The notes beneath the pieces were generated by a model, which worked only from the letters and a program-made list of their open reading frames with translations, was not told the DNA's origin and did not search any database. Shown here in pieces: positions 1-22,527 of a DNA stretch of 64,000 nucleotides (position 1 is the first letter of the stretch; every line of letters starts with the position of its first letter). The DNA is from Styela clava (taxonomy: Eukaryota), in contig NC_135251.1 of the NCBI RefSeq assembly GCF_964204865.1, positions 22,010,001 to 22,074,000 on the forward strand, written 5' to 3'. Made by a program: the position numbers and the translations under genes.

Positions 1-3000
1 AACCTCACACGAAATAACATTTACGCAATAGAAATCTTACAGGCAGCATATCCGGGGATACACCCCTTGTTTTTACTAAACCATGATTCATATATGACAA
101 GTTTTTGAATGGAACATAACAAATTATAATATTTTATGGACGCTTTGTCATGGCGCCGTCGCGATTGTACCACATCGTATATTTGATAAAAACCAATAGA
201 TAAATCAATATGAAAACATACACTAAAAAACTCCGCCTTGAGCTATTTCCACGAATAGAGTGGGAAATCATACAAGACACGCGTTTTGAGAATTTTCTAA
301 TATATCTGCATTACCTACTGTGAACAAATAAAGTCGCGGCTAAAACTCGGGCCATGAGTGATGCATACTTGACATTCAATATCGGTGAGATTGTCTTGAA
401 CACAACAAGTGACTAATGCGCGTATGCTTGACAGCTACTGGGAGTAATATAATCAGTGGCATATAGCTAGCCATCTGACTCCATCTTTTTTTTCAACTAT
501 CCTAACTTCCCGTCGCATCATCAACCTGGGGACACATTTATATGAATATTTTCCTGACAAACACAGATGAAAATTATAACGTATACGTCATCGAATGATG
601 TCACCTTATGGGGTTTGTAATCAAAATTTACCAGTATCAAATTAAAAAAATCAACCAAGGAAAATAATCTTTTCATAAAACTGACAAAACTAGATTCATG
701 TAAAATATAATATTGTTTGTATTACGTTGTATTTAAACAATAAACTTTATATTATATAAAATTTATGCTAACAGGTTTATCAATTATTTCCCCTGGTTGA
801 CGTTTTTTGCGCCATCGGTGATTTATAAATTACAATACCCTGCGGTGACATCAACCAATGACGTATTTATTTTGTGAATCTCCGTTGCTGTTAGTTGCTA
901 GTTTAGTTTTGAACACAAGATGTCACGGGTTGTTTATTATTTATTTAACCACAGTGAAATACGGTAGTTTAAAAAACTGAGAATGACCATTGACGTCAAT
1001 GGATGATGTAAAGATATTGAGTTTGTATTCCTTCACTTCTGTATAATTTATAATAAAGTAATTGTAAAGTCAATACTGGTTTATTTCGCTTTGCTTTTCA
1101 TACAGTCTATCGACTATCTATACATATGTGACACGTTATAGTGGCGCTCATTACGCGTAATTCGTCCACATTGGGCCATTTAAAAATCAAAAATACGTCA
1201 CTTTTATGATGATCACAACCAAGTACAACAATACTTCTATGATGCATTGAGGGTTTGAGGCATTTAAAATATTGTATTGGGACTATTGAATATGCAAACA
1301 ATTGAACTACTGAGCATATAAAAAATGTTTTTCCGGGGTATTTTATTTTCACATGAAGCAAAATCTAACGACTTGCTTATCATCACGCCCCGTCCCGGGG
1401 TACGGCACCGTGATCATTATTTTTAACCCTACAGTGTGAGTGACATTAATTTTACAATTTCGAAATTGCTAAACATGTATTTCAACTACAAATAATTTAG
1501 AACATTCACAGACGAATTTGTTGTACACAATTGAATGTGGAAAGTGTTGCTGAAAATAGTACGGCTGCGGCGTGTGCTAAAAATTAATTGTAATAAATAT
1601 TTTTGGAAAAAATATTCAACTGTATTTAAAAATCATTCATCTGATAACCATAGAGTATTTTTTAAATTTATTTTAATATGCTATGTTTTATCATGTTCCG
1701 TTTTAATACAGTCAAATACGTAATTTGGCATCGGAAATTCCGATATGACGTTTATGAGCGAGAGAAGTTATCAGAACAATTATTAACGAGATTAAATATG
1801 TGGATTTTACCCCAACGAGACCACGATGCGGAACTGATGATGTTCAATCGCGAAATGGTGAAATTGTGGTCAAAGTTTAATTTTAGCTTTTTCCCAAAAT
1901 AGCGTAAAGTCACGAATAGAAGCTTTTTTTTACCTCATAAAAATTACTTTCCCGTATTTATATATTCAACTGTCCTTTATGGATAAACTTTATTAAAAAG
2001 TTTGTGAGCATTTCATTCACATAGCGACTATATAACTAGCATTTCAAAATACAAATTGCTGGAAAGAAGCGTACAGCGATATAGATTACAGATAGTTACG
2101 TGTGGGTAGTAATTCAGATCGCAAAATCACTGATATTTAGGAGTAATAATAAACACTACTAAAATATCAGAACAAATATTAATCGATTTCGCTATAATAC
2201 AACCAAAATACTATTTTTCTCACCCTAATAAACAGTCAAGATGATATACATATTGCTCCAACACGTTCAAAATATATTTCACCAACCCCAACAAGAGTCC
2301 CAAATATTTGGATTTTATGGAACAATTCTTTCCGAGGTGTATAAATTGGTAGCTTTAGTTTAGGCTAAATCCCTACCATCTTTCCGAAAAGGGGCCAGAG
2401 ATAGGACAAAGCATAGCGTCGTATAGCAAAACAACGACGTCATAATACGAAAATATGGCGTCACCATTCGAATGCGCCATCAACGAATCTCCCCCATATA
2501 TTTTACTAGATCCAACGAAGGGTCTCAAGCTTAAATTTTGAGTGACAATAAAAGAAAGTGAGAAGTGATAACAGGTTTTTTATCTGGCACGAAAATTCCG
2601 ACGGCATACATTTAGGTTAAGTCTCCTCGCGGTTTGAAATCAAAACAAACAGAGGTCTTTCAGAACGACACGCGCTTAATACGTGATTATTATGGCAGCA
2701 TCCCTAAAATACCACCGCAAGCGTTACAAAGGAAAGATTGAGATATTGTACGTCATCCGTTTATGTCATCTAGTAATTCAAAATTACGTATTTCATAGTT
2801 GTTAAGTTGAAACCTGGGGATATCTTCTGTAAAATTAGCGATGTGCGACAATAGGGATTTTGAAAATGTATACGTCATTAATGTGATGTCATTTCAGATT
2901 TTGTAAATTGACTTTGTTATACTGAAACCGCCCACCTGGTTTAATCGTTGATTAAAGATTAGGAAACTAACAAGATTCAATTAAACTAAATTAATCATAT

Positions 3001-4104
3001 ATATCGCTAGCAAGAGCCAGAGTAAAAATTTGAAGCATAAAAATGAAACGGCGTGTTGGTCCATTTATTATGTTATTTGTACTCGTTTTTGTTGTGAAAG
3101 AAACAACACAAAAGTAGTATGTATAATGCAATATAGCCAGGGTTGGGATTCAGGGGTCGCCAACCCTTTCTTGAAATATCGTAATATTAGCGAGCACATT
3201 CTTGCATTTTGTTTAAACGATCGCAGCAAATTTGTAACGTGCCTTGCATCTGATGACCAGCGTTATTTTTGCTGATCATCCAAAAATTAATTATATGTTT
3301 TATGTAAACCATGCCACGTTAATGCATTCACACATATTTTCGAGATGATGGAACTTGTTGTTGGTGAATTAGATGAAAAAGAGCACCCGTTGTTAAAAAT
3401 AAGACTGTTTAAATTGACAGTTCGATTTACTTGTTTTATCACGCTCATCAGAGATGTAGATCACGCCTTTGATGGGGAATGGTTCTCGTATACATCATGC
3501 ATGAAAAACAGATTTCTACTAAGTACGTAGATTTGAATAAAATAATCATTCCTGTGAAATTAACCAGGGGAAACAATTCATTTATATAACTGACAAAAAT
3601 AGATTCCTGACAGGTCTAATAAAATTTGTTCTGTGTTGTAAAACAACAAATTTTTTGAAACTTTCATACTTCTGTTTTCGGACATTTCAATACTGTTCAA
3701 GCCTAAATTTTCCACTCCATTTTTAATAAATTCAAATCTTTACAAAACTCCACAAGTATAAATTGAAAAGTTTCGTTACTCTCAACAAACATTTACAAAC
3801 CACGAAAGCCTCTTCAAATATTGCTGCGTGACGTTTTAACTTTGCTCACTATTTGCAGATTTGTTTGATATAACGCAATACATACGTCGTTGGAAACTCC
3901 GATACAAGATTTCGTAGGTGAGAGTAAACATCCGTAGAAAAATAATGTCACTAATTTGTGTATTCAATGACCCAAATAGTTATGATCTAAACCAGTGACG
4001 TTGATGAAGTAGCTTTGATTGGATGAATGATTTTCAAGAGGGAAAATAAACTTTTATTTATAGACCGCCTTTCGAGTTCTTTCGCTCAAAATAACATTTA
4101 TCAA

Positions 4105-7100
4105 TTAAAATAATAAACGGGTGTTCTAAAAATAACTTGAAGATTGGTTAAGCAAACTCAAAATCGATGCAAGCTTTAAACTGTTTAAAATAGTCATGTA
4201 GACAAAAATAGATTTTCGCCAGCTAGAAACCTAACGTAGTCAGTCACTTAATCTCTGATCAAAGGTAGACAGCAGAAAGATATTAATATAAAAATAAAAA
4301 TCACCTTTCCGGTTGCCACTGATTTTCCCGGAGATTTTGGCGTGCTTGGATCGTCAGTAAATGATGCACCACCGGTTACAAAGTCCATCGATGGTGCTCT
4401 AGGTTGTGGCGGAGGGGTTTGGAGTCGATATACCGGCAACGCACGAAATATAGCACCACTTTCTGGCTCAGCAGGTTTCGAACTTTCGAGACTGCTTTTG
4501 TCTGCCTGTGATGACAAAAAGAAAATAGTCATTTCGAAGGAGCTAATTTTTCAGCCTAATCGCATATTTGGGCACTTTTGAAAATTGCCACTTGTGTTTA
4601 AGCAAAATAAAAAATCTCACAAAAAAGCTTCTTTAGAAGCGAAATTACGTTGATAATTTCATATCTGTTTTCATCGTTTTGGCTTAAATCTTACACTATG
4701 TTACTTTACCAAATAGGATAAAACTATTCGACAGCCAACCGCGCTCATAACATTGATTCTACTCCTTTCACTTTTTGAAATCCATGTGAGTCATGCGTGA
4801 GTCCACTAGGCCGTGGTTCCAACAGTCATTACTATGGGTTTTATATGGAAAACTTCATTTCTCTTCCTAAAATTAATATTGTACAAACAGACCTTTGGTT
4901 TTACTAGAGCTTTAAAAAATTTCTTATTTCGAACTTCCAGGACATTTGGTGGTTGGGTCATATTTGGTAGAATTTGTTGTCGTTGAATTAAATCACGATC
5001 ATATGCAGATCTTCGGAATGGTTTCCATCTGGAAAGGATACACGCATGGTGTTATGTTGTATTAGGATATGGGACTGTTATACCAGGCCCAAATTAACTC
5101 GAGTTAGAATCACTCCTTGAGTTTTCAAATAATAATGCAGAAAAGAATAAAATTGCATTTGTATATTACTATACTGTGACTATTTTATATTATTTCCTTA
5201 TTATACTGTTCGAAACGAAAGCATGTTTCCATTGACAATTTTGTTCAAATAGTTTTAACTATCCAATGTGGCATAACAGCATATGAAGAAATTCACTCTC
5301 TGGCCCCAGCTAGCGGTTGAAGAATATGAATCATAACTCATTCGCAATAACATATTATATTTGAATATCGGTCTAGCGTTGAACTTGAAACAAAGACTAC
5401 GAACATTTAGAAAAGTTTGTCAAAAAATAACGGTCCGTAAAACAAACCTCTAGCGATCTTATCGTTTTCACGCCTAATTACAGTGCTGTAGAGCAGGGAT
5501 TCTCAAACTTATGATGTTGCGGAGCCCTTGAAAATGTTGACTATTCTTCACGGGGCCCCACAAATAAATTTTGAAAATAACGCAGACAAAAAACACATAT
5601 CATTTGCTGATAAATATTCCCGAGTAAGTTAAAATTACTTTACCTAATTTAAATGCTAAAACTTTTTAATCTGCATTTCACAGATAAATTATATATATTA
5701 GGTCTGTAAAATTGAAAACTTGACAAACACATTAATGAACTCGAAATGAGGTCGAACCACCTCACTTTTGATATTTTTGGAAGACTAAGGAAGTCGCTCC
5801 TAACATGCGCGATTGCATTTTGTTAAAATGCGACTTTTTTTCGATATGTGACAATATATAAGGTAATTGTGAAGATTATTAATCAATTTGTTATTGCGAA
5901 CAAAATACATTTCAATCCTTCGTTTTTTCGTTCACTTGACTTTGTTGTTTCTCGTTTGATGTCCGCGGATTGGCATGGTAATTTTGGGCAGTAATGATTT
6001 TATATTGTCGTAAGTCCACGCACCCACAGGTTACATTGAACACAATGAAGCCAATAAACAAGGCATTTTAACATGCAGGCATCGGTCAGGGATTGAGCAA
6101 TTGTAAATTGTAGTCTTTGAGATTTTAACATAGCTGAGAGAACAACTCAAATTTGATGAATCCCAAGATCGCAAAAATAGGATTCCAATCTATTTATAGT
6201 TGGCAGTTTAGCACTTATTTTATATTATTTTAGAATGTAGTAATAGTATTTCCCATTTTGATAATCGTAATTGTAATCTAGACTCATAGGCAAGTAACGA
6301 GAAACACAATTAAATTATTATGACACGACATTTTGAATGCTCGCATCGGCCATGGATGGAAACTCGTTATCCACTGAAAAAGTTTTTTTTTTATCGAGTG
6401 GCCTAATAGCGAGTAGTGGTGCCAGGGAATTTTTAATTTCAATTTTGAACCCTCCCCTCTCTCTTTTAAAAATCCTGGCTGCACTTCTACTTATAGATAA
6501 TGTAATATATATTTGAATTACGCCTCGTTGCGATATTTCGACGCTATACTGTTGTCAGATTTTATTAATGGTGTTATTACCTATCGATCTTAAGATCGGT
6601 AAGTATATTGATAGGTATTTGTCTGTATGTATGTCTGTCTGTCTGTGTGTCTGTTAGATGAACGCGATATCTCGCGAACGCGTGGTTGAATCTGCTCCAA
6701 ATTTTGCATGTGCATGCATCTTACCTCGGACCAGAAGCCTATAGATTTTGGGTTAATTATGTCGTATAATTAGCGAGTTATTAACTAATTACCGATCTAA
6801 GATCGATAAGTCTTCGGTCTCCGACCGATATTCTCGTTGCTTCTTTGAACAGTTACAGAATAGCCAAGATCATATTTTGACAAGTAATCGAATAGCTCGC
6901 GGAGCCCCTAGGTTCCTCTCGCGGAGCGCTGGGGCTCCGTACGGAGCACTTTGAGAACCTATGCTGTAGAGGAAGCATGTTCAAAATTATATTTTTAACA
7001 TCCGACGAATTCAAACCTTTCTGCATCAAATATGAGAGGGTAATCATATTTTTTCGTTTGTGGTTTCCTTCTACCACTTCGTATATTGACAGGTTTGACT

Positions 7101-10100
7101 GGAACTTCGTTGATGTCGTATGGAAGAACAGGACTTGAAGGTAGAGAAGGATTAGGTGATAAATACCAAACTCTATGCTGTCCGAAATACCCTACGTAAT
7201 GAGCACGTTGCGGATACCAAATTCTAAAAAAAATTAAAAAAGTTAGTGAAACCCTACAACAAACAAATCAGTGAAAAAGCATGATAAATTAGGTATAATT
7301 TAGAGTATGAAAACAAAGGGAAAAATCGTTGAGTTTGTAATAAATACTAGAAAAAAAAAATTATGCCAACATATACAGGAATGAGCCTCCATTTCTGCTA
7401 ACCTGACTGATCCATCGGTAGAAGCGGTGATAAGTGCACCAGCTTCATCGCCATAAACTACGGATACAATTTTCATAAGATGAGCCCTCCAACTTATTAT
7501 TTGTCGAACTAGTTCAGTGTTAGCTTGAACTGATGTACCGGTGTTTGATTTTTGAAGAAATTCGGAGACGTCCCACATTGTAACGTAACCCTCTGGCAAA
7601 AATATAAAAGTTGAGGATGTACGGAAAAGAAACCATGATTTTTTATTGTATTCATGCACGTAGACTAAATTATACCAAAGATCAACAATAATTTTGCGCT
7701 CATTTCCATATCTATGTAATGTTCATGTTTACCGGTAGCCGATGTAACATCAAGGTAATATTTTATTTTTCAATCAATAATTAGCAGGTTCTTCCGGTAT
7801 CAAAAATATACCCCTCATCTTGTTCTATATTTATACGAAAGAAGGATAAAATACAAAATAGCACGGGATAAACAGATAGACTCCCAAGACAACACTATAC
7901 ATGTACATAATGTGGCAACAATGTCATGACCATTGCCACGCATGAAGTGAGTTTGCTCACATGAACCGAATGAAAAATTGAAATATTTTATGCAAGAAAT
8001 AGACGCGTTTACATCAGATCTATACAGTATATGTGAGTTTTACATTTGCAGCTTGGGGAGTAAGTTTAGTATTTATAACGCGACTAGGCTTTTAGTTATA
8101 TATTTCAAACCAACGCAAATCAGAATTGTTAAACGAATAGAGATATGTGATTAAAACTGAGTCCAATAGAACTAAAGACAAGGAAATTGAAATTGTTCAC
8201 ATCTAACAGTAATATGGCTCAGATCGCGATTTAAGAGTTTTTGAAATTACAGGCACATATCTTACTTGTATCGCCAACGATAAGATAGTTTGAATATTCG
8301 TCATTACACATCGTGGTGATTGGTGAAACGACTTTGGTCATTGGTACAAGAGATACAAGCAATTCTCCGGTCATTGACCACAATCTGTAATACAAGAAAC
8401 CAGTTCAAAAAAATATGTTTGCAACGAATGGAATTGTGCGCTAATGATTTGCTAACTGCTTTTCTTTCTTATATGCTTTTTTGTCGATGATTCGTATTTA
8501 CATCATTCAATGATGCTGTAGCAAGAGTAAAGATAACTATTCTAATTGATTCTTGCTGGGCCTAAAACGAATATATATTCCAGTAGCATTTCGCCTGACC
8601 AAGGTCAGACTTCTTCAGAAACACAGAGTTCAACTACTCTCAGAATTCCTAATTGCTATAATTATGACAATTCATTATCGTGCCTTGCATAATAATAAAC
8701 AATAATGCTTTGATACAATTCGGCCTAAAAGTCTTAATTCTAATTGGCGATTGTCATTACCTCACGTTAGAATCTTGATGACATGATGCGATAACTGGTG
8801 GGAACTCAACTTCTACTTTCTTGATGGGTTCCGGATCAATGTCCATTAGCTGACGCTCCTCGAAACTTTTTAGATCAAAATCGTCACCGTCTTGTTCTTC
8901 ATCTGAAGTCTACGAAAAATAGGTAAATAGTACAACACATCATGCGATACATTCCATTTTATTAAATCTCTATAAGACAGTTAGAAAATAAAAATTTTAC
9001 TATTATTAATGGATGTTTGTCCCAAAGCATCAACTTCCTTGTTTACTTCCATTACATTGGCTAATCAAAATGTAGGTGACGACGAAACAATTAAATTTTA
9101 GCAGTGACTCTGACACTTTTTTTCACTCAGACAGTTTTCAGGTACGATGACAAACATTCGATTTTTCGTGGATTGTCAAGTTTTAGTTGCATTTTCGAAA
9201 TTTAGGAGCAAATAAAGTTTCAGAGTTTTAGTTTGGCTGCATTACCCAAATATTAATCTGCTATAACCTAGGGCCTGGGCTAAAATTTTTACCGGCACAT
9301 ACCGTATTTTTAAATGCTACGCGGTTGAATATTTTAAATAAATATGATTTGAAGCATGTAAACCAGGTTGTAAACGCTAATTCATGAAAAAAAAGGCAAA
9401 ATAAACCTCAACAATTTTGCAATGGTAAAGTATCGGAAAGATTCCGGGGAAACACCCATAGAATTGAATTTTCGTCCATAAGCATAAGGCCCTCCCTGGG
9501 CATATGAAGGACCGTGTTTCGGGCAACCTTTTATATGACAGTCATTAAAAATAACAAACCTCAACGTCAATCTGTGCTTCTTCAGCAGGATCATCATCAA
9601 CTTCTTCTTTCTTTTCCTCTTTAGCATCATCCTACCAATAAGTAATTTATACTTTTTATTGTTTTTTTATTTATAGAATTTTGGTATAAACATGAGAGTA
9701 TAATAGTGAAGCATGTAATTCGATACAATATACATTTTTATAACAATTACCTATTTAAAATGCCTTTACAATTATGTTTATGCTGGTATTGGAAATTCTG
9801 ATAGTTCGTTTTCTTGCTTTTCTGCATAGCTCACACCAAAGTCTAGAATGGACTTGAAAGCAGCAGTTGTTAGTCAAAAGTGGAATTCTCTATCTATATT
9901 GGTGAATTTCACCTTCTGTTCTTGCTCTGTCTTTTCTTCCTCGTCTTCTTCAGCTTCATCGTCTACCAATCCACCTTCGATCTCCAACATTTTCTTTTTT
10001 CGTAATTTTCTCCTTCTTTTTACTTCTTCTGGATCGGGTACAAATATTTTGTGACACAACCCTGCTACTTGGTTCACGCGATAAGGAAACATTTCTTTCA

Positions 10101-13100
10101 TTCTTCTCTCACGACTGTCGTAACGACTGGGAACTTCTGCCTTTTCGAGTTCAAAGCTGTGAAATAAGAGAAACGCAGTAATAGACGACAATATTTTCAA
10201 AAAGCGTAGATATAAAAGTATTGTGTTTTGCTGGCATCTGCAGTTTCGAACTTCACGCCTTCGTCATGTGATCATGGTTTTTGACAAAGCCTTGACGGCT
10301 TCAGAAAGCCTTCCGATTTTGCATAGTTCAACTATTATATGAATATCTAATTCAAATCATGACCCATTTTTGCCAAAAAGCAAAAAGGAATATTTTAGAA
10401 ATAATCATATATATTATCAAGTATTTGTTACGGTTTAAATGCTCGGTAAGTTTTTTTTCTTTGTTTCATTTATAAAATGTGTATTCATAAAAAACTAGTT
10501 ATTCAGGTGACCGTACATTTGAACCCATGTGTATATCCGCGGGTTCATTCTATATGCGGGTGCTTAAACCCATGGGTTAGGGTTAGTATGGGTTCAAATA
10601 TCCTTAAAACAAAAAAATTTCTATAGGTGCAATAGTATGCAGGTGCAATTGTCGTGGGTTCAAATGTGCGTGGGTTCAAATGTTATGGAACTCGTTATTC
10701 AACGTAAGAAGAATAAAAATTAACACTCACACATTAGATACTGTTCCTTCCTCCGGATTCCACAGAATAATATTTCCATTAGAACATCCGGTAACAAGTA
10801 TACTTGAAACAGAAGGCAAACGGACGTCCATCATCGAGCAGCAAGTGATTTCATGGCGAAGAAAGAGGTCTTCCTAAATTGCAAAAGTATACTAACGGTT
10901 AACAAATTTTGCAATAAAAATTGAAAAATATGTGATGTGGTAGTCAATGTAAATTATAGGCTTATAGTCTTATCTGATCATGCTCTAAATTTTCTAAAAT
11001 ATACATTTTGATTTTAGAGAAGTTTAAATTAGCTTGACTTGTCAACTATTGTAGGTGACAAACATTTTTCTCGTGGAAGTTTCGATTTTACGATATTAGA
11101 AATATTCTAATATTCCTGTGCCAACTTGTGTCTTGTAACATTTCCGTAGCAATAAAAATCTTTATGTACCTACTCTTAGCTCATCAATTGACAGTTGTAA
11201 CTGGCCTGTCAGTAATCTGGTTAGTTCTAAGAAAAAAGAGTCTGATCGCTTAGAGCAGTGGTCGGCAACGGGCAAACCGTGGGCCGCCGAGAATTTTCTG
11301 GTTGGTCACCAATAAATTTCAATTATAGCAGTGATACACAAAAACATTTTAACTACAAAAATTAAATGTTTTTAGTGTACGGGGTTAAATTTAAAATTTT
11401 CAACGAAATTGTTGGGTCTTAAAACTTTTTCCATTCTACTATTTGACCCTCACTTAAAAAACCACCGGTTTAGACAGTCTACCGGAAAGAAAGTCGTCAG
11501 TATCTCTTCTGCATATCAGAATCTCTCACTTTTTCAGTTATTAGTGATCTCCAGCTAAAAGAATTTGTTGGCAATCAATTTTGATATAAAAGTCAAATTC
11601 GCATAAAGTCAGTTGCAAACAATTGGTATATAATCACTTTTCTAAGAATCCCTTTATCGTCGTCGTCTTCAGCAGTTTTCTTCTTTGTCTTTTTGTCGGA
11701 ATCACCTTCTACACTTCCTGTCAAACTTGCAGTCTGAAATGAATTTAATCTGATATATTGCAAAATACTTTGTATTATGTCAAATAATTTACATATGAAT
11801 AAAACTTCAGTATTCGAAGGCCAAACATAATTGTTCGTTTTTACATTTATCTAATTCAAACAAAGAAATTAGTCAACGATATATGTATCCCGTTTCTATA
11901 TGAAAGAAGTCGTGATTCACTTTTGTTGTTTGAAATGATCACCAACTTCAATCTTTTGGTATTATTCATATTCTAAACAATCACGAATTTTGATTTATTC
12001 CATCTACAAAATGTTAATTACAAATGTATAAAATAATTATTAAAGACCATCGGAATGCTTTTTAACGAGTACAACAAGGTGAAAGCTCACAGATGTAGAT
12101 GCGCAACCTTACCTCTGCGCCAGGTTCGGGTGTAGTCTGTGGTGTAGGAGGCCACTCATATGTTCCACTGAACTCACGTACAAAACGAATTTCATCGTTT
12201 TCATCACTATCCTAAATGAAGAAATATCAAACAACTCAAATATAATTTGTAGCATGGTAAAATTATTGTTACTGTTCATCCGTTTTAATTTGAACTCTAA
12301 GATTATGATAAAATAAATTTTAATTCATAAAATAGGTGAAAATATATGGAATTAGAGAAATAACACTACCTCAAATTCTTTCAACTTATTGTTCCATCCC
12401 AATGCTAATATTCTCCGATTTACAATTTCATCTTTCTGTTGATATTCTGTAAAATATATATATTGACAGGTCTCGATGGCATTATCTATAGCAATTTCAC
12501 AATATGACGTAGTGGTTGGCGAGTTCGCGAACTGATGATGTCATCTTGGGGAAAATCTTACTCATTGTATAGTTTGTGACAAACAAATCATCTCGCCAAG
12601 AGGGCAAGATGTTGGGTGGATGTTGTGGTACAGAACAGGATTATGTTCACGCGATTTATTGTAACGTGACCTTCCCGGGGGAAGTGTAGAACACCCAATT
12701 GAAACATTCGTTCTGTCAATAACATGAATTGAAGTTATTTGAGCAGTTTATATTGGTATTAATTTTTACATTATGATCAACAAAATTGATTGGTACAAGT
12801 TTACATCCAATTACTCTACAATTCTTATATTGGGGAAGTTTTAGGCAAATTATCATTTTTCCTCCAATACTACCTATTGTATGCCTATTGATGATAACGT
12901 ACCATGCTCAAATTGCTTGTTTTCGTTTTGCTCATCAGTGTCTTTATTTTTCTTCTTATTTAAATAGGAAATCCACAATATGGAATTATCTTCCTCGCTT
13001 GGGGGATCGAGTTGATATGATTTCATTTCTTGTCCGCTGCTGAACTCCCAGATTTTGATCGATCCTAGTTCGAAAATGAACGAAAAATTCAAGGTTATCA

Positions 13101-16100
13101 TTATTTAAACGAGAATTAATAATTTAAGATAGTCTGTAACATGTTATCCTGATCACTAAATTATTATACTCATGTTATTTTTGACAGCCTGTGCTTTTGG
13201 TAATTAATATCATGCTAACTAACGTTGAAATCTGGAGGTTTAGTCCTTACGCCTGTGATTAAATTCATAAATTCCTCATTACTCAAATTCAGTTATTTCA
13301 AATAATCACAAAAAAAAATATTCTGAAGGACAATTATTCTTACCATCATAGGCTCCAGTGAGCATGCGTGTACCGGTCTCATCAACGCCAGAAGCAGTTA
13401 CTTCGATTCCTAAGCCATGAGCTTCTAATATTTGATACATTTGTCTTCCGCTGTCAATTTCCCAAACCTTTGGGGTAAGCAAGATTATCTTATTACAAGA
13501 TTACAGGTATAGAACTTCCGAAGATTTAAAATTTCTACTAGTCTGTATTACTATCATTACAGATTCTTATGAAATATTCGTTGAATTGAATACGGCTGCG
13601 AATTGAAAGGAAAATTTGATCAGTTACACGAATCGTTCACACACATCCCAGGGAGTCCCAATGTAATATGGATCAATGTAATATACCCGTCTATGATACT
13701 TTCTCATCTTTAGTTAAAGAAAATTGGAAATAGATTAGCTCACTAGTGAAAAAAGAATGCAATTTCTGTCCTAATTACAACAACATGAGCACCTCCAAGA
13801 ATAACAAATTAGCACGATCTATAACCGAATCCCATGAAATTTTATCGTCTGTGATTATGCAAATACGGTATGCATAAAATTATCAAAAACTATAGCCATA
13901 TTCGATACAAAGTCATACAATAACTCGTAAAAGTTTAACAGTTTGGTATACAAGTCGACCCGCTCTCGGCGCGCTAAAATCTTTCTAAATTCTAAAATTT
14001 ACTCACTTTGACGATTGATTCTGAACATGCAGTGATAACTTGATCCATTGGTTTATTTTTAACAACAAGAGTTAGCGGATGATCATGGGTGTGAGGTACA
14101 GACATCGTATCTTGAACACTTCGTGTCATTGGCCACAAGTCTATACTGCTTGAACCTAAAAATGAACGTCTGAACTACCGATTGTAGTACTAAATAACTA
14201 GGAAGCAATATAAAGAGAACGTTTGAGTCACTTGAATTCTTTGTGAAATTTGCAATTAATTTGCAGTTTGCAACTGTTGTGGCTCTCATAACTCGAAATC
14301 ACAAAAATTTTCTTAAAAGTGAAGACTTTGATTTTTAAATATAGCACGGTGATAGTTGGAAGCAACGATCATGAAATTGTTATATTATGTTGGAATAAGC
14401 TTAAGAGGAGTACAAGAGAATTGTAATGCGAATCGCATGAAAAAACTAACCTGTGAATAGTCTGTCATGTCGGCTGTCGAACAGCAAGCAAGATATTCTC
14501 TTGTCTCCTGACCTCTGTTCTGTATCGGTGAACACCTGGTTATACAAGATAATTTGATAATTAATAGTAATTACATCAACCCAATCTCATAAAGAGTCAG
14601 TCTATTTCTTAGTGAATCAAGAATAAATAAATGAGCTAAATGACGGATAGCCAGTGTTCGCGAATATTATCCTATTGGCGTATACGCGTTCTTCAGGGGG
14701 CTAGTATTGCCATTTATGAATTTAGCGACTGAACAGTGAAGTAAGGTAGAGTTAGGAATAGCCATTATATATTAGATCAAGGTGTGCAATTTTTGACGTC
14801 ATTACGCACAAAGCGCACATTTTTGAAAGAAATAATAGCCTTCTTTCACCACTGAAAATATCAAAGCAATTGGTCCAGTAATTAATGAAAAAGGCGATTT
14901 TTTTCTGAACAATAAGAAGGAAAATACAAACAAGAACAACATAAAAACAAAACGATCCATATGTACATTTCGTGTCCAAAAATTATTCCATCCGAATATG
15001 TGCAATGGTATATGGTTGCCTCAAGAAGTCTGACCTCCGCCAGACGAAACGTTACAGAAAGAAATTTTGGTTAGTGTACAGAGGAATGACTCTTGATTCC
15101 CATTCGACCGTATCCGATTTGGCGCGACAATTTGTTTTGAATTCCGTGTCCATATATTTGAGCATCGCTCTCTTGTTATCTTGTTATTCTGCTACAGAAC
15201 CGTAACCTTTGTATATATATTCATCCGTACGCATTGGTGGTTGTCGGCTTTATTTGGCGGAATGCTTGAAAAATTATAAATATGTAAAACTACCACATAT
15301 TTTCTATTATGCGTTTATTCAATGGCTTAGATTTGAGAATTGCTTATTCTTGGCATCTTTGTAGACAAGGAAAATATATCACCTTTCTTTATATCAAGTT
15401 TATTGAACAGAATAGGTTGAAAAAAGTACTAAGGATAAAAACAAACAAACTACGATATTTTAGCTAAGAAAAAAAATAAAAAACAAAACAAATGAAATAA
15501 GAAAACAACTAACAAATGAAAATGATTTTTCAGGAGTAAAAATATTATCAACAGAAACATTTTATCGAAAGTTAGAAATGCTCGAACTTGGTATGGAGTA
15601 ATTACAAATTTCTGAATTTATACTTTGATTAATCGAAGTATCTGTGTAAAAGTTATCGATATATTCTAGAATTTCTTGGAAGTCGACGTCTATATCTTCG
15701 TTGTTTTCGGACATGATGTCATCGCTTGATTCTTTGCCATTCAAATCGGCTCCTTCATTTTGATCCTTCACAACTTTTGTCAAGTATGAAATATAAGAAA
15801 TCGCGCATCGCAAAACTGAAATTTTAGAGATTTTTTCTCCCTGTTGTCTCGGCAACCAATCATACGGAAGATGATCACGTAAAACATGAAGCTGTTTCGT
15901 AACAATTTGAACACGTTTCTTTTCTCGTTGGCTTGCGATTGTTCTTTTTGATGTGAGATGTCGATTTTCACATATAGCGTTGTTTAATGCGTATGGATGC
16001 TGTCTCGATCTCTCTTTTGTGGAGAATTTTCCGTTCAATTTGCATTGTTGATTTTTTGGAGTCGTGAATGGAATATTTTCGTTGTTAACTCCTGTAGATT

Positions 16101-19100
16101 GGCATCGATATTTCACACTTCGTGGATCACCTGATTTCATTGGAGCGGAAACTATCTGCCCGAAAAACTCGTGGCTTTGACTTTGAAATTCTCTGCAGTT
16201 GACAGATCTATTCAACACATTCTGGCCTGTAAAGATGTTCATTGTGGAACGATGTAGTATAGCAATCAGTTTTCAAATAGACAAGGTTATTAAATTTCAG
16301 CAAACTCTCTTTCGGAACAATCGAATAATGAGATTCCTTGGAATCCAAATAGGACAAACTACATTGATAATTCATTCTGGGATGAGTTTATATATTCTCG
16401 TTTCCATACAATTAATTAAATTTTAGCAAGATGTTTTTTCGTAACGCGATGAAGAATATTTCACTCATTTTTCCTGCTACTTTAGCTGCCAAATCGGAAA
16501 CGTTCGTAATACACAAACCCACAATTAATGAATTTTTGTGTCGTGTTGTATCTTGCCTGATCCGTATAATAAGGTAATTTTCGAACTACGATTTATCTAC
16601 AATCAACAATGACTCGTGTGTGATCACTTCACTGATTTCTGATAAGAAAAAGACTAATTCCGTCGGTGTGAAAAGGTGTGAATACTCCTTTGGGTTCCGA
16701 TTTTGATAACGCATTGATGCTCCGCTCGACCAGATAAGATAGATAAATTACATCTCCCAGTTCCGATTCCAATAAAATCAGTCAGAAAGTGCAAAATTAA
16801 ATGCATTAAACATCGTATCAAACTTGTAGCAGCGCACTTTGAGACAATTTTAATAAATCATATGTAAAAAAGTATACCGAAAATTAAAACCTAACCCTTA
16901 TACGTATCACACATTAGTAATGTTCATCACGTTAGTAGGAGACAAGTAACTCGAATGGACAGTGTCACACACATCTTCAGTCTCTTGTCCAAGATGTGGC
17001 ATCTGGTCACTGACGTAACAAAGCATCGATTATTTTCATGGAAATTATTTTATTGAATCAATCAAAAATTACCTGTAAGCAGCTTAGTGTATGTATGTCC
17101 CAGACTCTAAAAACGCGAGCGGTAGATAAGCTGATAATATGCCTATCTTTATCGTTGATAACCACCGCTATTATTGTAAACAAGTGTCCCATCATTTTAC
17201 CAGTTGGCCTCGTGAGAATGGTTGGGTGCCAAACTCGGATAATTTTGTCGACTCCACCTAAAAAAATAAAACAGGTTTTGTGAATTACTGATATAATTTG
17301 CATTGTTGGTTCATACTGAATATGTGATCTTATCAGATTTTTGTATCTGATGACAATATCAAATCATCACTGCGAGATTTATGTTCTATATATTTACCTA
17401 TAAAATGCCACCAACTGAAAATACTGAATGGATGTTCTTTTTCTTCACATTGCTGTATTTTATACCAACAACAGGGGTACCCATTCTTCCCCATCATCTA
17501 TCTATATGGTCATTACATATGCTTGATTAGAAATCAGTATTCTACAGTGATTTCAAAATTAAAAATCATCTTTCATGTCTTATCTATATTTCTATATCCC
17601 GCAGGGGTGGGTTTTAGTCCCCATGAACATTATTTTATAATAAAAAATGAATTTCAAAAATCTATTTACGTTTTATGCTTAAATAGTTAAGTGTTTTTAA
17701 ATATACCGCTTTCCTTTAGAAAAGAAAAAAACTTGATCACAGGTTACAAAAACCAATTAGATTTAAGCAAAACTACACGAAAATAAAATCGTTCGTTACC
17801 TGTTGCAAAAATATTGGACTTTTCTGAATAAGCAAATGCGTTCACACCTCGTGTAATCGTCAATTCACTGACTGGTCTAAAAAATAGTAAAGAACCAAAA
17901 TAGTATCAACATCGGGTGACGAAGTTGAGAAGATGATCTGATCGAACCACCACAATATATAAACTCGGACAAATCCTAAGTTTAGCCTTATATCAATAAT
18001 TTAATCGTATACTTGATCAGAAACGGTGCATGATTTATAACCAGAAGCCTCGATTCACCATAAGGATAAGCTGTTTTGTCGAATTCCGGGTAAATTTGAT
18101 ATATATATATATATCACATCTCCCGCACATCTTATTGTGTTTACAAATAAAAAAAAAACGTATATATATATGAACATTATATATATTAAAACAAATTTCT
18201 CGCACAAATGTTTGTGGTAATGCTTACTGTGTATCAAAAAGTCTTCCCTTCTCCGCAATAACAAACGATGTTTTATCACTTGGCGAACACGACGCAAAGG
18301 ATTTTAATTCAGGAATATATTCAATCTTCAACACCCAATCTGGATGAAATTTTCTTCGAATAATGGGTCTGAAAATATATTAAAAAAAAAAAGATTTATC
18401 TCACACATACATATAGCGTAACTGACAAATTATCTCAATGATATTATCGTACTCATACCAAAAGTTGATATGACTCAATCAAATTCATTTTGAGTTCAAC
18501 CCCTGAATTACCAATACGTATGTTATATACTCTCAAAAATATGATCATGATATGATTCATATCCGAACTTGAATCGTGGCAGCATTGCACCTTCACAGGA
18601 AACGAGGTCAGTCGATAAATTTCCACCCTTCTGCATCGTACTGTTTTAGGACGTATTGCTTGAATATCGCAAATAACAGAATCAAATTTTGTAATGGAAC
18701 TGATCAGGAAAGGTTAGCTTCAGATTTTTATTTAAGTTTTTGAGGGACAGTTGTATGAGCAAAAATATGAATCGACACGAATTCAATATTTTTCAAATTT
18801 AAATTTTAAAAGTTGCTTCTGTAATTTATTGTGCTTTACTCACAACATCAGATTCATTGGATCGATTACTTGACTCATCATCGCACGTTTGGGATCTTTA
18901 TTTGTACTTGCAGCAAAATCATTCGGCGTCAGACGAACAAGATTAACATATCCTAGTCGAAAAATAACACATTTTAATAAGCTATGCTAAAAATATTACA
19001 ACACAAAAGGATTTCAATTTTGATGAACGTTCTAACATTGGACGTTATTTTGGCATCTTGAATACGCCTTCATACGAGTTACAACATTTTGTGGTAAATT

Positions 19101-22100
19101 GTTGAACAGAATCTAACGTTGTAAAGAAGTAGAGATTATAATCGATAAGAGCGATGATAAGTAAAAAAAGTAAAGTTTAAGTATATAAATTAATAAAACT
19201 TATAGTTTACATTTGATAACAGAATCCCGAGATGATTCAGTTGGATAAGGTATTTCATCTATAGCGACATTGACAAACACGAGTATATAATACACACATT
19301 TTCTAAGTTGTGTCGGTAATTAATACTGCAAAACCGATATTAAAAATTCGTGACAACCACACATGTGATAGACTTGTTTTAAACAAAATTTGAAGAATAC
19401 CCCAATTTCAGAAAAAGAAAATAAATACCTGCGTCATCGCCAATGAGTACTGAATCCGTGTGATCATCTTCAGGGGGAAGAAGACACATACATTGGGGCG
19501 AGTGTTCCAGTGGCTTTATAACATAGATACTAGATTGGTTATTTGCTTTTGTTCTGTGATCCCAAATAACGATTGTTCGTTCTGTTGTTGCCTAAAACAC
19601 ACGGAAATGTCACAATAAAATTTAACGAGTGAAAGAAATTAAAAAACTGTCTATTCACTTACTATTACTTTTCGAAGTCTTGGTAAATATTCGCAACTAG
19701 TCATCCACGCTGGTTCCTGAAATATACTTGTGTGTTAGTAAAGTAAGTGGAATGATGATAAAACGATGTTTTGAACAACATCATAGTTTAGGAGTGTACA
19801 TCGCCGCGGTCGTAGGACAACTAATATTACATATATAGCCAAAAAGTAGTATTTGTCGTACTTACGTTAACATCGATGCAATTTTGCAGACGCAACTAAA
19901 ACATAAACAACATCAAATTACAATTCATTAACTTCTGAATAAAAGTGTAACATTTAATGAAAAAGCAAATTAGAATAGTAAATTATAAAGAAAAGTGAAA
20001 TGTGAATTTTTGCATTATAAATCTAGTTTCTAAAATTTTCTAATCTAAAATTTTTTCCAGTTCTGTATAAATGTTGCGTTTATTTTCGAGTGAATAATAT
20101 ATTGCATTAAATACTGTACTGTTGAAAGTACGGAATGGCTAAATTGGCATAATGAAGCTTTTTGGTAATATGGTTAAGAAAAATATAGAAAAAGGAATGA
20201 TAAAACAATGAAATGTTTTACAAAGGATTTACGTGATAGGCATTTATTGGTAATTTCAAATTATTCGAGAGTAAAATATCACTGATAGCATGTATGACAA
20301 AATACGAGGCCCACATAATTGACCAGTTTGTTAATTTTTCAGCAGTTCATACACGTGTGATATTATATATGCTATGTTTGACATGAGACAAAATTTTTAT
20401 ATAAAGATGTGATCGCGTTGAGTTTTTGTTTCACTTCCTATAGAAAATACCTTTCCATTATAAATAGAAATAGCTCCTTTCTGTGACGCAGTGACAAATA
20501 AATCGTATTCTGGAGAATATGAAATACACTGAATTATATCTCGACGTTTCTTGTCACCTGTATCGATAAAATGATGAGAAAATTTGTTGAAGGCAAACAT
20601 ACAGTATTATTTAGACAAAAATTGATGTGTAATATTATCATTAGTATGATAAAATAGGTAGCAAAATATCCTACTCTATCTTCCGATAAATTGAATTGTA
20701 ATTGCAATGGTAATCGAATTTTCAAGAGAAATGTTTCAATACCTGCCGCTTCTCCAATTTTCTTTCTTTTCGAAACAGTGAAAACGCTGATTTCATCAGA
20801 ATTGTCCGTCTCTTCATTTTCTGCTTGGAAGTATCCAAACACCTTTTAAAAATTAAGTGTGTGATGTGAGTGTGACTAACAATGAGTATATATGTAATTA
20901 TTGGTACTTGGTGGTTCAGAACCTTTGAATCAGACTTTGACAACTTCTTTTTCATAACATTTCATCGGAATAAATATAATCCGGCAGGCAATGATGAACC
21001 CCCTTAAGAGTGCAGATAATTGTTTTCTATGATGAGCAAATGCAGAAAGTATTCTCTTATTCAATTTAGTTTTATATGTTCTTGGTATATACAAAAAAGG
21101 CGGTAGAAATTGTGGGTGATTATTACCTCACTCCAATCAATCTTAACTTCTGGATTCGTGCTAATTTTACGAAAAATCGCCTTCATGTCTTCCGTTTTTA
21201 TATCCGGTCCAAAACACAATCGGATGTTTTCACAGAAAGGTTCGTATCGAAGTGTTTCTGAAAATTAAATACGAAAAGCAATGCGTTTTAAAGCAGCGTA
21301 TAGTATATATTATTACGGACTTGAATGAAAAAAAAACGCGATGATGTGATACAATCTGAAATTGTTTAACCAATCAGCCATCGGCATTAGACATCAGAGC
21401 ACCAATTTCGTAAAAAGATAGGCAGACAAGCGATACGGTCGATTAAATTAAATCGGGAAAATTTTGTATGAAATATCGGGTACAATAAGACTCAAAGGAA
21501 ATCAAGAAAGAAAAATAATAGCCTTCTAGCGGGATCAATCATCTTTGAGTAATGAAAATTTGAAATCAAGAACAATAATTTGGCACAGCAATCCATATGT
21601 GTCCGTTGGCCGAATTAAATATCTCAATTATTAAATATCTATACTCTATATACTAAAGTGTTCACGTATAAAAGTTTCCTCAGTGGTATTAAAACAGCAG
21701 TGAATTGTTACGAAAGATTTCCATTCAAGCAATACAGAAGTGTTCAACATAACTTTTGATATCCAATATTTGCTCTGACGACAATACTTTTGATTTGATA
21801 CTCGTTCGCGGGCCCATAAAGTGTCAAACAAGGATAGGGCTATTCAAAATCTTTTAATTGTTAAGTATTTTGTTCAAACATGAATGGATGATAAATAGTA
21901 ACTTGCAATTGCAATATAGAGTGGACGTTTCATGGCCATCTATGATAGATTGTAAAAGTATTGTTTGATGTTAAACTATATATGGTTTCTCCATAAAATT
22001 TAAAAGCCCGTATCTTCGATCTATTTAAAAAGCCATTCTAGTGTTTGATTTTCGGACTCTTACTCCTTTTTACTGTTTAGAATACATGCTTTTGACGTTG

Positions 22101-22527
22101 ATTCTGAACAGAAAACTTAAATACTTCTGGCGCCACCGGTAATGATATCTTTCTAACTCTTTTGTTGTCAAACATGGATAGAGTTTGTGGTGGAATATTT
22201 AAATACAAAACATAATCCTGTGGAATATCTTTTTCCATAAATAGCACTAAGCTCCTGGTAAAATACCCATTGGAGCATGGAGTTACGGAATTCGATCGTT
22301 GCAGTGGTCGTAATCAATTAATCTTCTAATTATACATTTTCTGATATATATAAATGAATCACATTTATCTCACCATTTATTTTCTGTCTTTTTTCATCAA
22401 CACTTGCATCCGAATCCTGCATAGTAACTTCAGCAATGTATTCTTCGAACATTTCCAAATCTCTTTGAAAACTAGTCATTGAAAGCGGACGGACCAATGG
22501 CTCTTGCTGGTCCATTGTAGTCGCCAT
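4105..22527 (-). CDS. WDR64: WD repeat-containing protein 64-like, ~28 exons
   Basis: Spliced exons with GT-AG ends read MATTMDQQEPLVRPLSMTSFQRDLEMFEE (22527-22374), LRYEPFCENIRLCFGPDIKTEDMKAIFRKISTNPEVKIDWSE (21257-21127), VFGYFQAE (20842-20743), DKKRRDIIQCISYSPEYDLFVTASQKG (20557-20451), ATTERTIVIWDH (19591-19429), RRKFHPDWVLKIEY (18368-18227), GGVDKIIRVWHPTILTRPTGKMMGHLF...RVWDIHTLSCLQ (17257-17073), VFTD (14535-14451), VPHTHD (14156-14007), VWEIDSGRQMYQILEAHG...TGAYDG (13467-13344), KIWEFSSGQEMK (~13064). These match vertebrate WDR64 in order, as recalled. Further exons run down to 5028-4893 and 4505-4305. The last exon (4125-4105) is tentative. Confidence 0.85.
5494..6963. mobile_element. 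non-autonomous hAT (Charlie/Buster-like) element in a WDR64 intron
   Basis: Ends CAGGGATTCTCAAA.../...TTTGAGAACCTATG with subterminal GCGGAGCCC motifs. Perfect 8-bp TSD CTGTAGAG (5486-5493, 6964-6971). Confidence 0.88.
6576..6836 (+). mobile_element. DINE-1/HINE-like (Helentron-associated) repeat nested in the hAT element
   Basis: Subterminal ATCGATCTTAAGATCG-type palindromes, (CTGT)n microsatellite, core ATATCTCG...AAATTTTGCA and a 3' hairpin. Inverted copy at 50380-50652. Confidence 0.7.
8589..8618 (-). ncRNA. minimal hammerhead ribozyme-like motif (copy A)
   Basis: Minus strand CUGAAGA-A-GUCUGACC-UU-GGUCAGGC-GAAA: intact core boxes and stem II; stems I/III are degenerate. Confidence 0.55.
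10506..10693. mobile_element. MITE with internal GGGTTAGGGTTA motif (MULE-like, 8-9 bp TSD)
   Basis: Imperfect TIR with core ACATTTGAACCCA; TSD GTTATTCA on both sides. Family member at 24079. Confidence 0.8.
11256..11467. mobile_element. degenerate hAT MITE
   Basis: CAGTGGTCGGCAAC start, ...AAACCACCG end; flanks GCTTAGAG/GTTTAGAC (2 mismatches). Confidence 0.45.
15016..15057 (+). ncRNA. minimal hammerhead ribozyme-like motif (copy B, core mutated)
   Basis: TTGC-CTCAAGA-A-GTCTG...CAGAC-GAAA-CGTT-ACAG. Confidence 0.45.
15562..16242 (-). CDS. intronless bHLH transcription factor, Mesp/mesogenin-like, nested in a WDR64 intron
   Basis: 226-aa ORF with bHLH domain KRTIASQREKKRVQIVTKQLHVLRDHLP...KISKISVLRCAISYISYL. 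The AS-x-REK-x-R basic motif is typical of Mesp/Msgn. Acidic C-terminus. Lies inside intron 14536-17072. bHLH call is firm; the Mesp orthology is moderate. Confidence 0.75.
   Translation of the reverse strand: MNIFTGQNVLNRSVNCREFQSQSHEFFGQIVSAPMKSGDPRSVKYRCQSTGVNNENIPFTTPKNQQCKLNGKFSTKERSRQHPYALNNAICENRHLTSKRTIASQREKKRVQIVTKQLHVLRDHLPYDWLPRQQGEKISKISVLRCAISYISYLTKVVKDQNEGADLNGKESSDDIMSENNEDIDVDFQEILEYIDNFYTDTSINQSINSEICNYSIPSSSISNFR
16387..16394 (-). promoter_or_regulatory. TATA box of the bHLH gene
   Basis: TATATAAA on the minus strand ~145 bp upstream of the ATG at 16242. Confidence 0.5.
16665..16682. promoter_or_regulatory. tandem T-box (Tbx6-type) half sites
   Basis: GGTGTGAA (16665-16672) and AGGTGTGAA (16674-16682), 10-bp period, ~430 bp upstream of the bHLH ATG. 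TAAT/ATTA homeodomain cores nearby (e.g. 16410-16419, 16522-16529, 16655). Confidence 0.5.

What the first reader, a model, noticed from the sequence alone, without database searches (positions are those of the whole stretch)
15562..16242. Mesp-like bHLH gene nested in a WDR64 intron on the same strand
Seen: an intact intronless 226-aa bHLH ORF inside the 2.5-kb intron 14536-17072, with its own TATA box and AATAAA signals (tttatt on + at ~15315 and ~15398). Established: nested genes are usually antisense to the host. Ascidian Mesp specifies the B7.5 cardiopharyngeal lineage, and vertebrate WDR64 is testis-biased. Inference: a divergent developmental regulator (ASQREKKRV rather than ASEREKLRM) whose poly(A) site could truncate host transcripts, so the two genes may need mutually exclusive expression.
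Basis: partly seen in the sequence, partly recalled or inferred. Interest (0 to 1): 0.7.

Follow-up and report, generated by a model that had tools for sequence, protein, structure and literature searches.

The report
Sea squirt Mesp inside WDR64 intron
In the sea squirt Styela clava, the Mesp gene, which likely switches on the heart-founder cells, sits whole inside an intron of the WDR64 gene on the same strand; the arrangement is real and probably arose in this lineage, but it is a known kind of gene nesting and any harm to the host gene is untested.

Summary
Observation confirmed; the inferred conflict is not shown. The window is Styela clava (99% to XP_039260590.1). The 226-aa ORF (15562-16242, minus strand) has a bHLH domain and lies in the largest intron (intron 11, 14536-17072, GT-AG) of a same-strand WDR64 gene. 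It is the Mesp orthologue: it falls in the ascidian Mesp clade (99/95) and is the best genome hit for Ciona and fish Mesp-family queries. RNA-like contigs from four runs of one study cover it unspliced, while most flanking DNA is uncovered. Upstream lie a TATA box, an Lhx3-like site and a rare pair of T-box sites, fitting the Tbx6/Lhx3 control known from Ciona. It is no more divergent than other ascidian Mesps. The nesting looks derived: Ciona Mesp and WDR64 are on different chromosomes, and Molgula Mesp lies beside SLC5A. The AATAAA signals and decoy splice acceptors are at background density, so truncation of WDR64 and obligatory mutually exclusive expression remain speculation. Same-strand single-exon nesting is a known class. 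It is a useful annotation with a testable enhancer, and of modest interest.

The parts
15562..16242 (-). Mesp coding sequence, single exon, 226 aa
   Evidence: 3 aa differences from S. clava XP_039260590.1; tree
15778..15948 (-). bHLH domain (aa 99-155)
   Evidence: PF00010 E 1.1e-11; genome scan place
14536..17072 (-). WDR64 intron 11 (2537 bp, GT-AG, phase 0), holding the whole Mesp unit
17073..17257 (-). WDR64 coding exon 11 (to aa 417)
   Evidence: its upstream joint is seen spliced in run X4
14451..14535 (-). WDR64 coding exon 12
4302..22527 (-). WDR64 host gene, at least 27 coding exons; the last ~30 aa were not placed
   Evidence: aa 1-1101 rebuilt at 99.5% identity to P0003, all 26 introns GT-AG; exon 27 to 4302
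16387..16394 (-). TATA box (TATATAAA), 152 bp upstream of the ATG; likely Mesp core promoter
   Evidence: sequence; RNA-like contigs end at 16310 and 16292, between TATA and ATG; function inferred
16410..16418 (+). Lhx3-like homeodomain site AATTAATTA (motif recalled)
   Evidence: 1 seen, 0.05 expected, P 0.05; function inferred
16665..16681 (+). two T-box half-sites (GGTGTGA x2, 10 bp start to start), 423-439 bp upstream of the ATG; predicted Tbx6 element
   Evidence: 2 seen, 0.04 expected, 0 of 225 background tiles hold two; 11 such pairs in 377 Mb; pattern chosen after seeing the sequence; upstream DNA is single-copy
15399..15404 (-). first AATAAA after the stop; likely Mesp poly(A) signal
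   Evidence: the furthest 3' contig ends at 15439; use not shown
15314..15319 (-). second AATAAA, alternative poly(A) signal
   Evidence: use not shown
15464..15481 (-). U-rich stretch ending in AG in the Mesp 3' UTR; a decoy splice acceptor that could make an alternative last exon for WDR64
   Evidence: 9.0 bits against 4.9 for the true intron-11 acceptor; an X3 contig reads through it unspliced; use not shown
14819..15193 (.). patchwork of short interspersed repeats downstream of the Mesp poly(A) signals
   Evidence: (3763 candidates, 40 scored)

Best explanation
This is the Styela clava Mesp gene, a single-exon bHLH gene lying inside intron 11 of WDR64 on the same strand, and it likely runs from its own promoter and poly(A) site as the heart-founder (B7.5) regulator while WDR64 likely splices over it. 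Shown: the ORF, the domain, the host intron and the orthology to Mesp. Weakly shown: a separate unspliced transcript. Inferred: Tbx6-type factors bind the paired T-box sites and, with an Lhx3-like input, fire the TATA promoter briefly at gastrulation, as in Ciona and Corella. Inferred: the compact unit (about 1.4 kb from enhancer to poly(A) signal) moved into this intron after the split from Ciona and Molgula. Inferred: it is tolerated because it has no introns of its own and because the two genes are probably active in different cells (a brief embryonic pulse against a sperm or flagellar gene), so conflict is avoided passively rather than by a dedicated mechanism.
For: Tree of 37 bHLH domains: the query is in a clade with Phallusia 'Mesp' (P0096, named), Ciona and Clavelina proteins at 99/95, sister to vertebrate Mesp/Msgn at 92/84. 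The 109-row quick tree agrees, 98 and 82. Ciona P0082 and fish Mesp-bb P0085 both hit this ORF best in the genome: E 6e-9 against 0.028, and 2e-7 against 0.004. Contigs in 4 of 4 laid runs cover the ORF unspliced within 15439-16310, and 13000-14600 has no cover. T-box pair and TATA. Tbx6/Lhx3 control of Mesp in Ciona and Corella (PMC6790052, passages). Ciona WDR64 = KH.C11.64 on chromosome 11 (PMC6952182, supplement row), whereas Mesp = KH.C3.100 (PMC7693978, table passage). Molgula Mesp is microsyntenic with an SLC5A-related gene (PMC4356046, Fig. 1 legend). Clavelina WDR64 and Mesp records lie on contigs of different length, 6.42 and 10.79 Mb. Mouse WDR64 is testis-enriched and flagellar (PMC11462348, abstract).
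Against: No expression data with stage or cell resolution. The four runs are one study, are contigs, and 'RNA' is the tool's guess; only X4 shows spliced joints. Splicing across intron 11 itself was not seen in RNA: it rests on the RefSeq model and on colinear orthologues. The tree has only 60 columns and the link to vertebrate Mesp is not starred (92/84). The T-box pattern was picked after reading the sequence; the loose GGYG core is not enriched (2 seen, 5.2 expected), and the relaxed 8-mer gives P 0.12. Tissue bias of WDR64 in Styela is unknown, and run X4 holds contigs of both genes. Of 51 bHLH matches in the genome, the 21 weakest were not retrieved, so 'single copy' rests. The Ciona name WDR64 is the authors' label, not an orthology test of mine.
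Confidence: 0.72

Rival explanations
1. One reading: Mesp's poly(A) site, reached by read-in or by splicing from WDR64 exon 11 to the decoy acceptor at 15464, would cut a real share of WDR64 transcripts at aa 417, so the two genes must be kept apart or Mesp activity regulates WDR64.
For: The true intron-11 acceptor is weak (4.9 bits, 9th weakest of 26). Stronger decoys lie at 16639 (10.9), 15464 (9.0, with AATAAA 60 nt further on) and 14905 (9.3). An AATAAA lies 18 nt after the donor. Nested genes can cause premature polyadenylation of hosts in mammals (PMC3192792, abstract; PMC11694760, passages).
Against: Decoys of that strength are background: 34 in 12.2 kb of the other introns, 5 of them with AATAAA within 200 nt, against 9 in 2.5 kb here. 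9 of 26 introns carry AATAAA. The intron-11 donor is among the strongest (9.5 bits), which would favour U1 protection (recalled). A full-length 1199-aa WDR64 is annotated and its frame is intact. No chimeric joint was listed in four runs, though the donor was not covered.
Confidence: 0.15
2. The ORF is not the working Mesp but a diverged or relocated extra bHLH (Figla-, Tcf23/24- or tunicate-specific type) with another role.
For: The basic region reads ASQREKKRV; RefSeq leaves it 'uncharacterized'; the top Atlas feature hit is bHLHa15-like (0.92), just above two Mesp clusters (0.91); a profile built from achaete-scute-like hits also scores it high (60.9 bits against 63.4 for the best other Styela locus; these profiles come from the query's own hits).
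Against: Holding it with the Styela Figla-like gene is rejected (AU p 0.011); with the Tcf24-like group p is 0.050, borderline. Those labels rest on recalled motifs. Styela has separate Ptf1a-, Tcf24-, Figla- and ASC-like loci. No better Mesp was found.
Confidence: 0.05
3. Mesp is expressed as a passenger of WDR64 transcription, released by read-through and SL trans-splicing as in ascidian operons.
For: Same strand; one contig (X1) has 27 unlaid letters beyond 16310 at the 5' end.
Against: It has its own TATA box and T-box pair. Mesp contigs lie inside the intron and none is joined to a WDR64 exon. In the Molgula 5' RACE sequences, four genes share a leader (24 nt in three, a shorter piece in one) and Mesp lacks it (PMC4356046 supplement). 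A leader like that would leave about 21 loose letters from 16311, not 27 from 16310 (by hand; the Styela leader is unknown to me).
Confidence: 0.04
4. The nesting is an assembly error.
For: One assembly was examined; no read was laid across the whole intron.
Against: The flanking exons are in order, with clean GT-AG ends. The upstream DNA is single-copy. Four runs hold 0.98-0.99 of the sampled words of 14400-17400 (they may be the assembly's own source).
Confidence: 0.03

Closest known systems
Ascidian Mesp (Ciona robusta KH.C3.100; Phallusia CAB3263760.1; Molgula and Corella Mesp)
   Same: Same clade; short bHLH protein; apparently one copy; T-box and Lhx3-like motifs within about 450 bp of the ATG, comparable to the Corella enhancer at -576/-421 (PMC6790052).
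   Different: It sits in a same-strand WDR64 intron. Ciona WDR64 is on another chromosome, and Molgula Mesp lies next to SLC5A. It has an acidic C-terminal extension with a motif shared only with two unnamed relatives, P0077 and P0078. Expression is untested.
Same-strand, single-exon intronic nested genes (Drosophila survey PMC3814207; mammalian survey PMC11694760)
   Same: Whole gene inside one large intron, same strand, no introns in the coding sequence; this is the commonest form of same-strand nesting.
   Different: In Drosophila the nested partner is typically testis-biased and the host broadly expressed. Here the roles look reversed: a lineage-specifying transcription factor inside a probable sperm or flagellar gene.
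Host truncation by nested genes (TXNDC12/KTI12 and the imprinted loci cited in PMC3192792 and PMC11694760)
   Same: Same geometry, so the mechanism is possible.
   Different: There, truncated host RNAs were measured, and they end mostly upstream of the active nested gene. None is shown here.
Vertebrate MESP1/MESP2/MSGN1
   Same: Sister group in the tree (92/84); Tbx6 input is shared (PMC6589888, passages).
   Different: 42-45% identity in the domain; ASEREKLRM is replaced by ASQREKKRV.

Membership tests
Mesp/Mesogenin bHLH | bHLH domain with the invariant basic-region Glu and Arg | tested here: met
   PF00010 E 1.1e-11; E107 and R110 invariant across ascidian-type Mesps
Mesp/Mesogenin bHLH | groups with named Mesp proteins in a tree | tested here: met
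   99/95 with ascidian Mesp, 92/84 with vertebrate Mesp/Msgn; 98 and 82; 60 columns only
Mesp/Mesogenin bHLH | best match in its own genome to known Mesp proteins | tested here: met
   5 candidates scored; 23 scored; top among 30 retrieved Styela bHLH loci for both Mesp profiles
Mesp/Mesogenin bHLH | literal vertebrate basic motif ASEREKLRM (a marker, not required in ascidians) | tested here: not met
   ASQREKKRV; other ascidian-type Mesps also deviate
Ascidian Mesp (functional) | transient expression in B7.5 and requirement for heart progenitors | not testable with these tools
   no staged or cell-resolved data
Ascidian Mesp (functional) | Tbx6 (plus or minus Lhx3) upstream enhancer | tested here: inconclusive
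   motifs present and rare but picked after the fact; binding untested
Figla | clade with the Figla-like bHLH | tested here: not met
   AU p 0.011; the L030 label is from a recalled motif, with no named Figla in the set
Tcf21/23/24 | clade with Tcf23/24-like bHLHs | tested here: not met
   not in the best tree; AU p 0.050, borderline; labels from recalled motifs
Same-strand intronic nested gene | entire gene within one spliced intron of a same-strand host | tested here: met
   (against the RefSeq model and orthologues; this joint was not seen in RNA)
Same-strand intronic nested gene | own transcript, independent of the host | tested here: inconclusive
   unspliced contigs over the ORF in 4 of 4 runs of one study; contigs cannot show ends or strand
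Nested gene that truncates its host | host transcripts polyadenylated inside the intron | tested here: inconclusive
   no chimeric joint listed, but the donor was not covered; signals at background density

The most novel reading that the evidence does not exclude
Ascidian Mesp is a compact, self-contained cassette (enhancer, promoter, single exon and poly(A) site in about 1.4 kb) that has landed independently inside introns of unrelated genes: sense in WDR64 in Styela, and probably antisense in SLC5A in Molgula. Such moves may force its enhancer to be rebuilt, which would give a physical cause for the known drift and cross-species unintelligibility of Mesp enhancers. In Styela the sense insertion may also give WDR64 an alternative last exon at 15464.
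Probability: 0.2. Interest if true: 0.55.

Novelty: new member of a known kind. Interest (0 to 1): 0.27.

Why it matters
It names an 'uncharacterized' RefSeq gene as the heart-lineage regulator of a stolidobranch ascidian and points to a sub-500-bp candidate enhancer with a Tbx6 site pair. That adds a directly testable third data point to the Ciona/Corella/Molgula comparison of Mesp enhancer drift. It also shows that the genomic address of this regulator is not conserved among ascidians, and it warns that deleting or editing either gene in Styela may affect the other. It does not reveal a new kind of system.

Tried and rejected
Word-based homologue searches found only the Styela protein or that plus Clavelina, so they say nothing about rarity. 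No RNA holder is on record as RNA. WDR64 exons had almost no cover in runs X1-X3; contigs show presence only, so this was not used as evidence of exclusive expression. RNA evidence across the exon 11-12 joint, the Mesp 3' end and the identity of the 27 loose 5' letters were not obtained and stay open. A metagenome scan for related loci found none: 63 pattern matches, 0 confirmed. WDR64 paralogues in Styela are intronless, so they cannot date intron 11. No SLC5 match lies within 2.4 Mb of Mesp among 102 of 176 candidates scored, so a local hop from a Molgula-like position is not supported. Rfam found 0 matches in the window. PDB hits were generic bHLHs. The Styela transcription-factor paper PMC8122590 does not mention Mesp in its text or supplement. 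Literature searches: 'WDR64'+'Mesp' gave 0 papers; 'Styela clava'+'Mesp' gave 1, unrelated to this locus; 'Mesp, nested, ascidian, intron' gave 1, where 'nested' is only in a reference title; 'spliced leader, trans-splicing, Styela' gave 0. The library lacks most subscription papers, including the original Ciona Mesp papers, and bioRxiv supplements are closed (for example the Mesp trees of 10.1101/2021.02.10.430586). Earlier scan findings: nothing. Structure and complex prediction were not run, because the fold is not in doubt.
Full report
1. Observation. The ORF is as described: ATG at 16242, stop at 15562, minus strand, 226 aa, with a Pfam HLH domain at aa 99-155, E 1.1e-11. Shuffled intron DNA never gave more than 153 aa in 300 trials. 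The protein differs at 3 of 226 residues from Styela clava XP_039260590.1, 'uncharacterized protein LOC120336883'. The flanking exon matches S. clava 'WD repeat-containing protein 64-like', 1199 aa. Using that protein as a guide, I mapped 27 coding exons from 22527 downward on the minus strand. All 26 introns are GT-AG, and aa 1-1101 are rebuilt at 99.5% identity. The bHLH gene lies in intron 11, 17072-14536, 2537 bp, the largest, and the exon join across it reproduces the RefSeq protein exactly. Clavelina, Phallusia, Ciona and amphioxus WDR64 align colinearly across this joint. TATATAAA is at 16394-16387, and AATAAA is at 15404 and 15319 as reported, plus 15254 and 17054. The hexamers are not above chance: 9 of 26 host introns have one, about 1.1 per kb.

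2. Identity. An exhaustive HMMER search with the domain gave 81 hits. Among the best are two unnamed proteins sharing motifs outside the domain (P0077, P0078), Ciona XP_078482034.1, Clavelina CAK8695810.1, Phallusia 'Mesp transcription factor protein' and many vertebrate Mesp/Mesogenin proteins. A PF00010 scan of the genome gave 51 matches among 62 candidates, of which I retrieved the best 30. In a 109-row quick tree the query joins the ascidian Mesps at SH-aLRT 98, sister to vertebrate Mesp/Msgn at 82. In a careful tree of 37 of those rows the values are 99/95 and 92/84. Forcing the query and its two closest relatives together with the Styela Figla-like gene is rejected (AU p 0.011); with the Tcf24-like group the result is borderline (p 0.050). 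These two labels rest on recalled motifs, the reference set derives from the query's own hits, and only 60 columns were available. Independently, the Ciona protein and a fish Mesp-bb each find this ORF as their best genomic hit by four or more orders of magnitude. Against this, the Atlas ranks a bHLHa15-like cluster (0.92) marginally above two Mesp clusters (0.91). The 'divergent' basic region is ordinary: 46-57% domain identity to five ascidian-type Mesps, which share 46-63% among themselves.

3. Transcription. Four runs of one study, guessed to be RNA and kept as contigs, were laid on 13000-19000. All four carry unspliced pieces over the ORF, together spanning 15439-16310. The upstream edges (16310, 16292) fall between the TATA box and the ATG, and the downstream edge (15439) falls just short of the first AATAAA. 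13000-14600 has no cover. Run X4 also holds a WDR64 contig spliced at three upstream introns (CT..AC on the plus strand), ending at 17163, so it does not reach intron 11. No joint links WDR64 to Mesp. Contigs cannot show ends, strand or level, so this is a weak but consistent sign of an independent transcript.

4. Predicted control. Upstream DNA (16250-17070) is single-copy. It holds two GGTGTGA T-box half-sites at 16665 and 16675 (2 seen, 0.04 expected; none of 225 background tiles has two). The paired pattern occurs 11 times in 377 Mb, and its reversed control 13 times, so it is rare rather than enriched genome-wide. An Lhx3-like AATTAATTA lies at 16410 (P 0.05). I chose these patterns after seeing the sequence, and the loose GGYG core is not enriched. 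They fit published work: Tbx6 and Lhx3 drive Mesp in Ciona and Corella, where the minimal Corella enhancer at -576/-421 has two required Tbx6 sites (PMC6790052, passages), and Tbx6 alone does so in Molgula (PMC4356046, passages).

5. Is the nesting conserved? Apparently not. Ciona Mesp is KH.C3.100 (PMC7693978, table passage), while a gene labelled WDR64 is KH.C11.64 on chromosome 11 (PMC6952182, one supplement row). Clavelina WDR64 and Mesp records lie on contigs of 6.42 and 10.79 Mb, which is indirect. Molgula Mesp is microsyntenic with an SLC5A-related gene (PMC4356046, Fig. 1 legend). My by-eye reading of the first 400 bases of the published driver finds an internal antisense SLC5-type exon, which suggests nesting there too. 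No SLC5 match lies within 2.4 Mb of Styela Mesp (102 of 176 candidates scored). No genomes of close relatives were available, so the insertion cannot be dated, and DNA-based against RNA-based movement cannot be told apart.

6. The conflict model. The true intron-11 acceptor is weak (4.9 bits, 9th weakest of 26), and stronger decoys lie at 16639, 15464 and 14905; the one at 15464 is followed by AATAAA, so an alternative last exon is possible. But decoys of that strength occur at 34 per 12.2 kb in the other introns (5 with AATAAA within 200 nt), against 9 per 2.5 kb here, and the donor is strong. WDR64 is intact. Mouse WDR64 is testis-enriched and flagellar (PMC11462348, abstract), and ascidian Mesp is transient in B7.5 (PMC6589888, passages). 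Separation in time and tissue is therefore plausible without any special mechanism, but neither pattern is known for Styela. Truncation of hosts by nested genes is documented in mammals (PMC3192792, abstract; PMC11694760, passages).

7. Comparison and novelty. Same-strand nesting makes up 28.7% of nested pairs in Drosophila, and 72.5% of such genes are single-exon (PMC3814207, section 5); mammals show only a slight antisense bias. The architecture is therefore a known kind and the gene a member of a known family. What appears unreported, in the searches named under Tried and rejected, is the identification of this gene as Styela Mesp, its position in WDR64 and its candidate enhancer. Verdict: real, a new member of a known kind, interest 0.27. 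The boldest reading left open, Mesp as a compact cassette that has moved between host introns and thereby driven enhancer drift, has a probability of about 0.2.

Noticed in passing
PMC4356046 supplement 1, Moocci.Mesp -1148/+21 driver: Read by eye (400 of 1172 characters shown), the Molgula occidentalis Mesp driver holds an internal SLC5-type exon with clean splice sites on the opposite strand, about 0.8-0.95 kb upstream of the ATG. Its earlier exons must lie toward or beyond Mesp, so Molgula Mesp may itself be nested antisense in an SLC5A intron. The family call is recalled and agrees with the paper's Fig. 1 legend.
   Followed up: partly
G000:C2:16025512-16035087 (L025, L029, L031): Tandem cluster of five unusual bHLH copies in both orientations, two with stops. 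The three placed in the tree form a long-branch clade with no clear family.
   Followed up: partly
G000:C8:16.88-16.90 Mb and C17:13.71-13.74 Mb: Two tandem arrays of near-identical T-box genes (about 5 and 7 copies), possibly a Tbx6-related expansion.
   Followed up: no
L040, L041, L042 (G000:C4, C17): WDR64-related paralogues (33-35% identity over the probe) in uninterrupted frames of 1146-1266 aa, i.e. intronless, unlike the 27-exon WDR64.
   Followed up: no
window 28172-54847: A run of housekeeping genes with long uninterrupted frames: PQ-loop/MPDU1-like, LIN52, acyl-CoA dehydrogenase, CENP-N, ANKRD13, ATG4-type peptidase C54; also spliced queuosine-salvage exons at 48648-50157.
   Followed up: no
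window 36016-36666 and 59037-59864 (minus): Two frames that look like fragments of non-LTR or Penelope-type retroelement proteins (recalled resemblance; no Pfam hit over cut-off).
   Followed up: no
window 14819-15193: Three short high-copy repeats, some paired in opposite orientation elsewhere (MITE-like), abundant in the RNA-like contigs.
   Followed up: partly
window 16540-16758: A low-depth contig in run X2 over the predicted enhancer; it may be enhancer RNA, WDR64 pre-mRNA or DNA.
   Followed up: no
L006/L007, L012/L016, L021/L027: Pairs of closely similar bHLH genes (ARNT-like, Ptf1a-like and ASC-like by recalled motifs).
   Followed up: no
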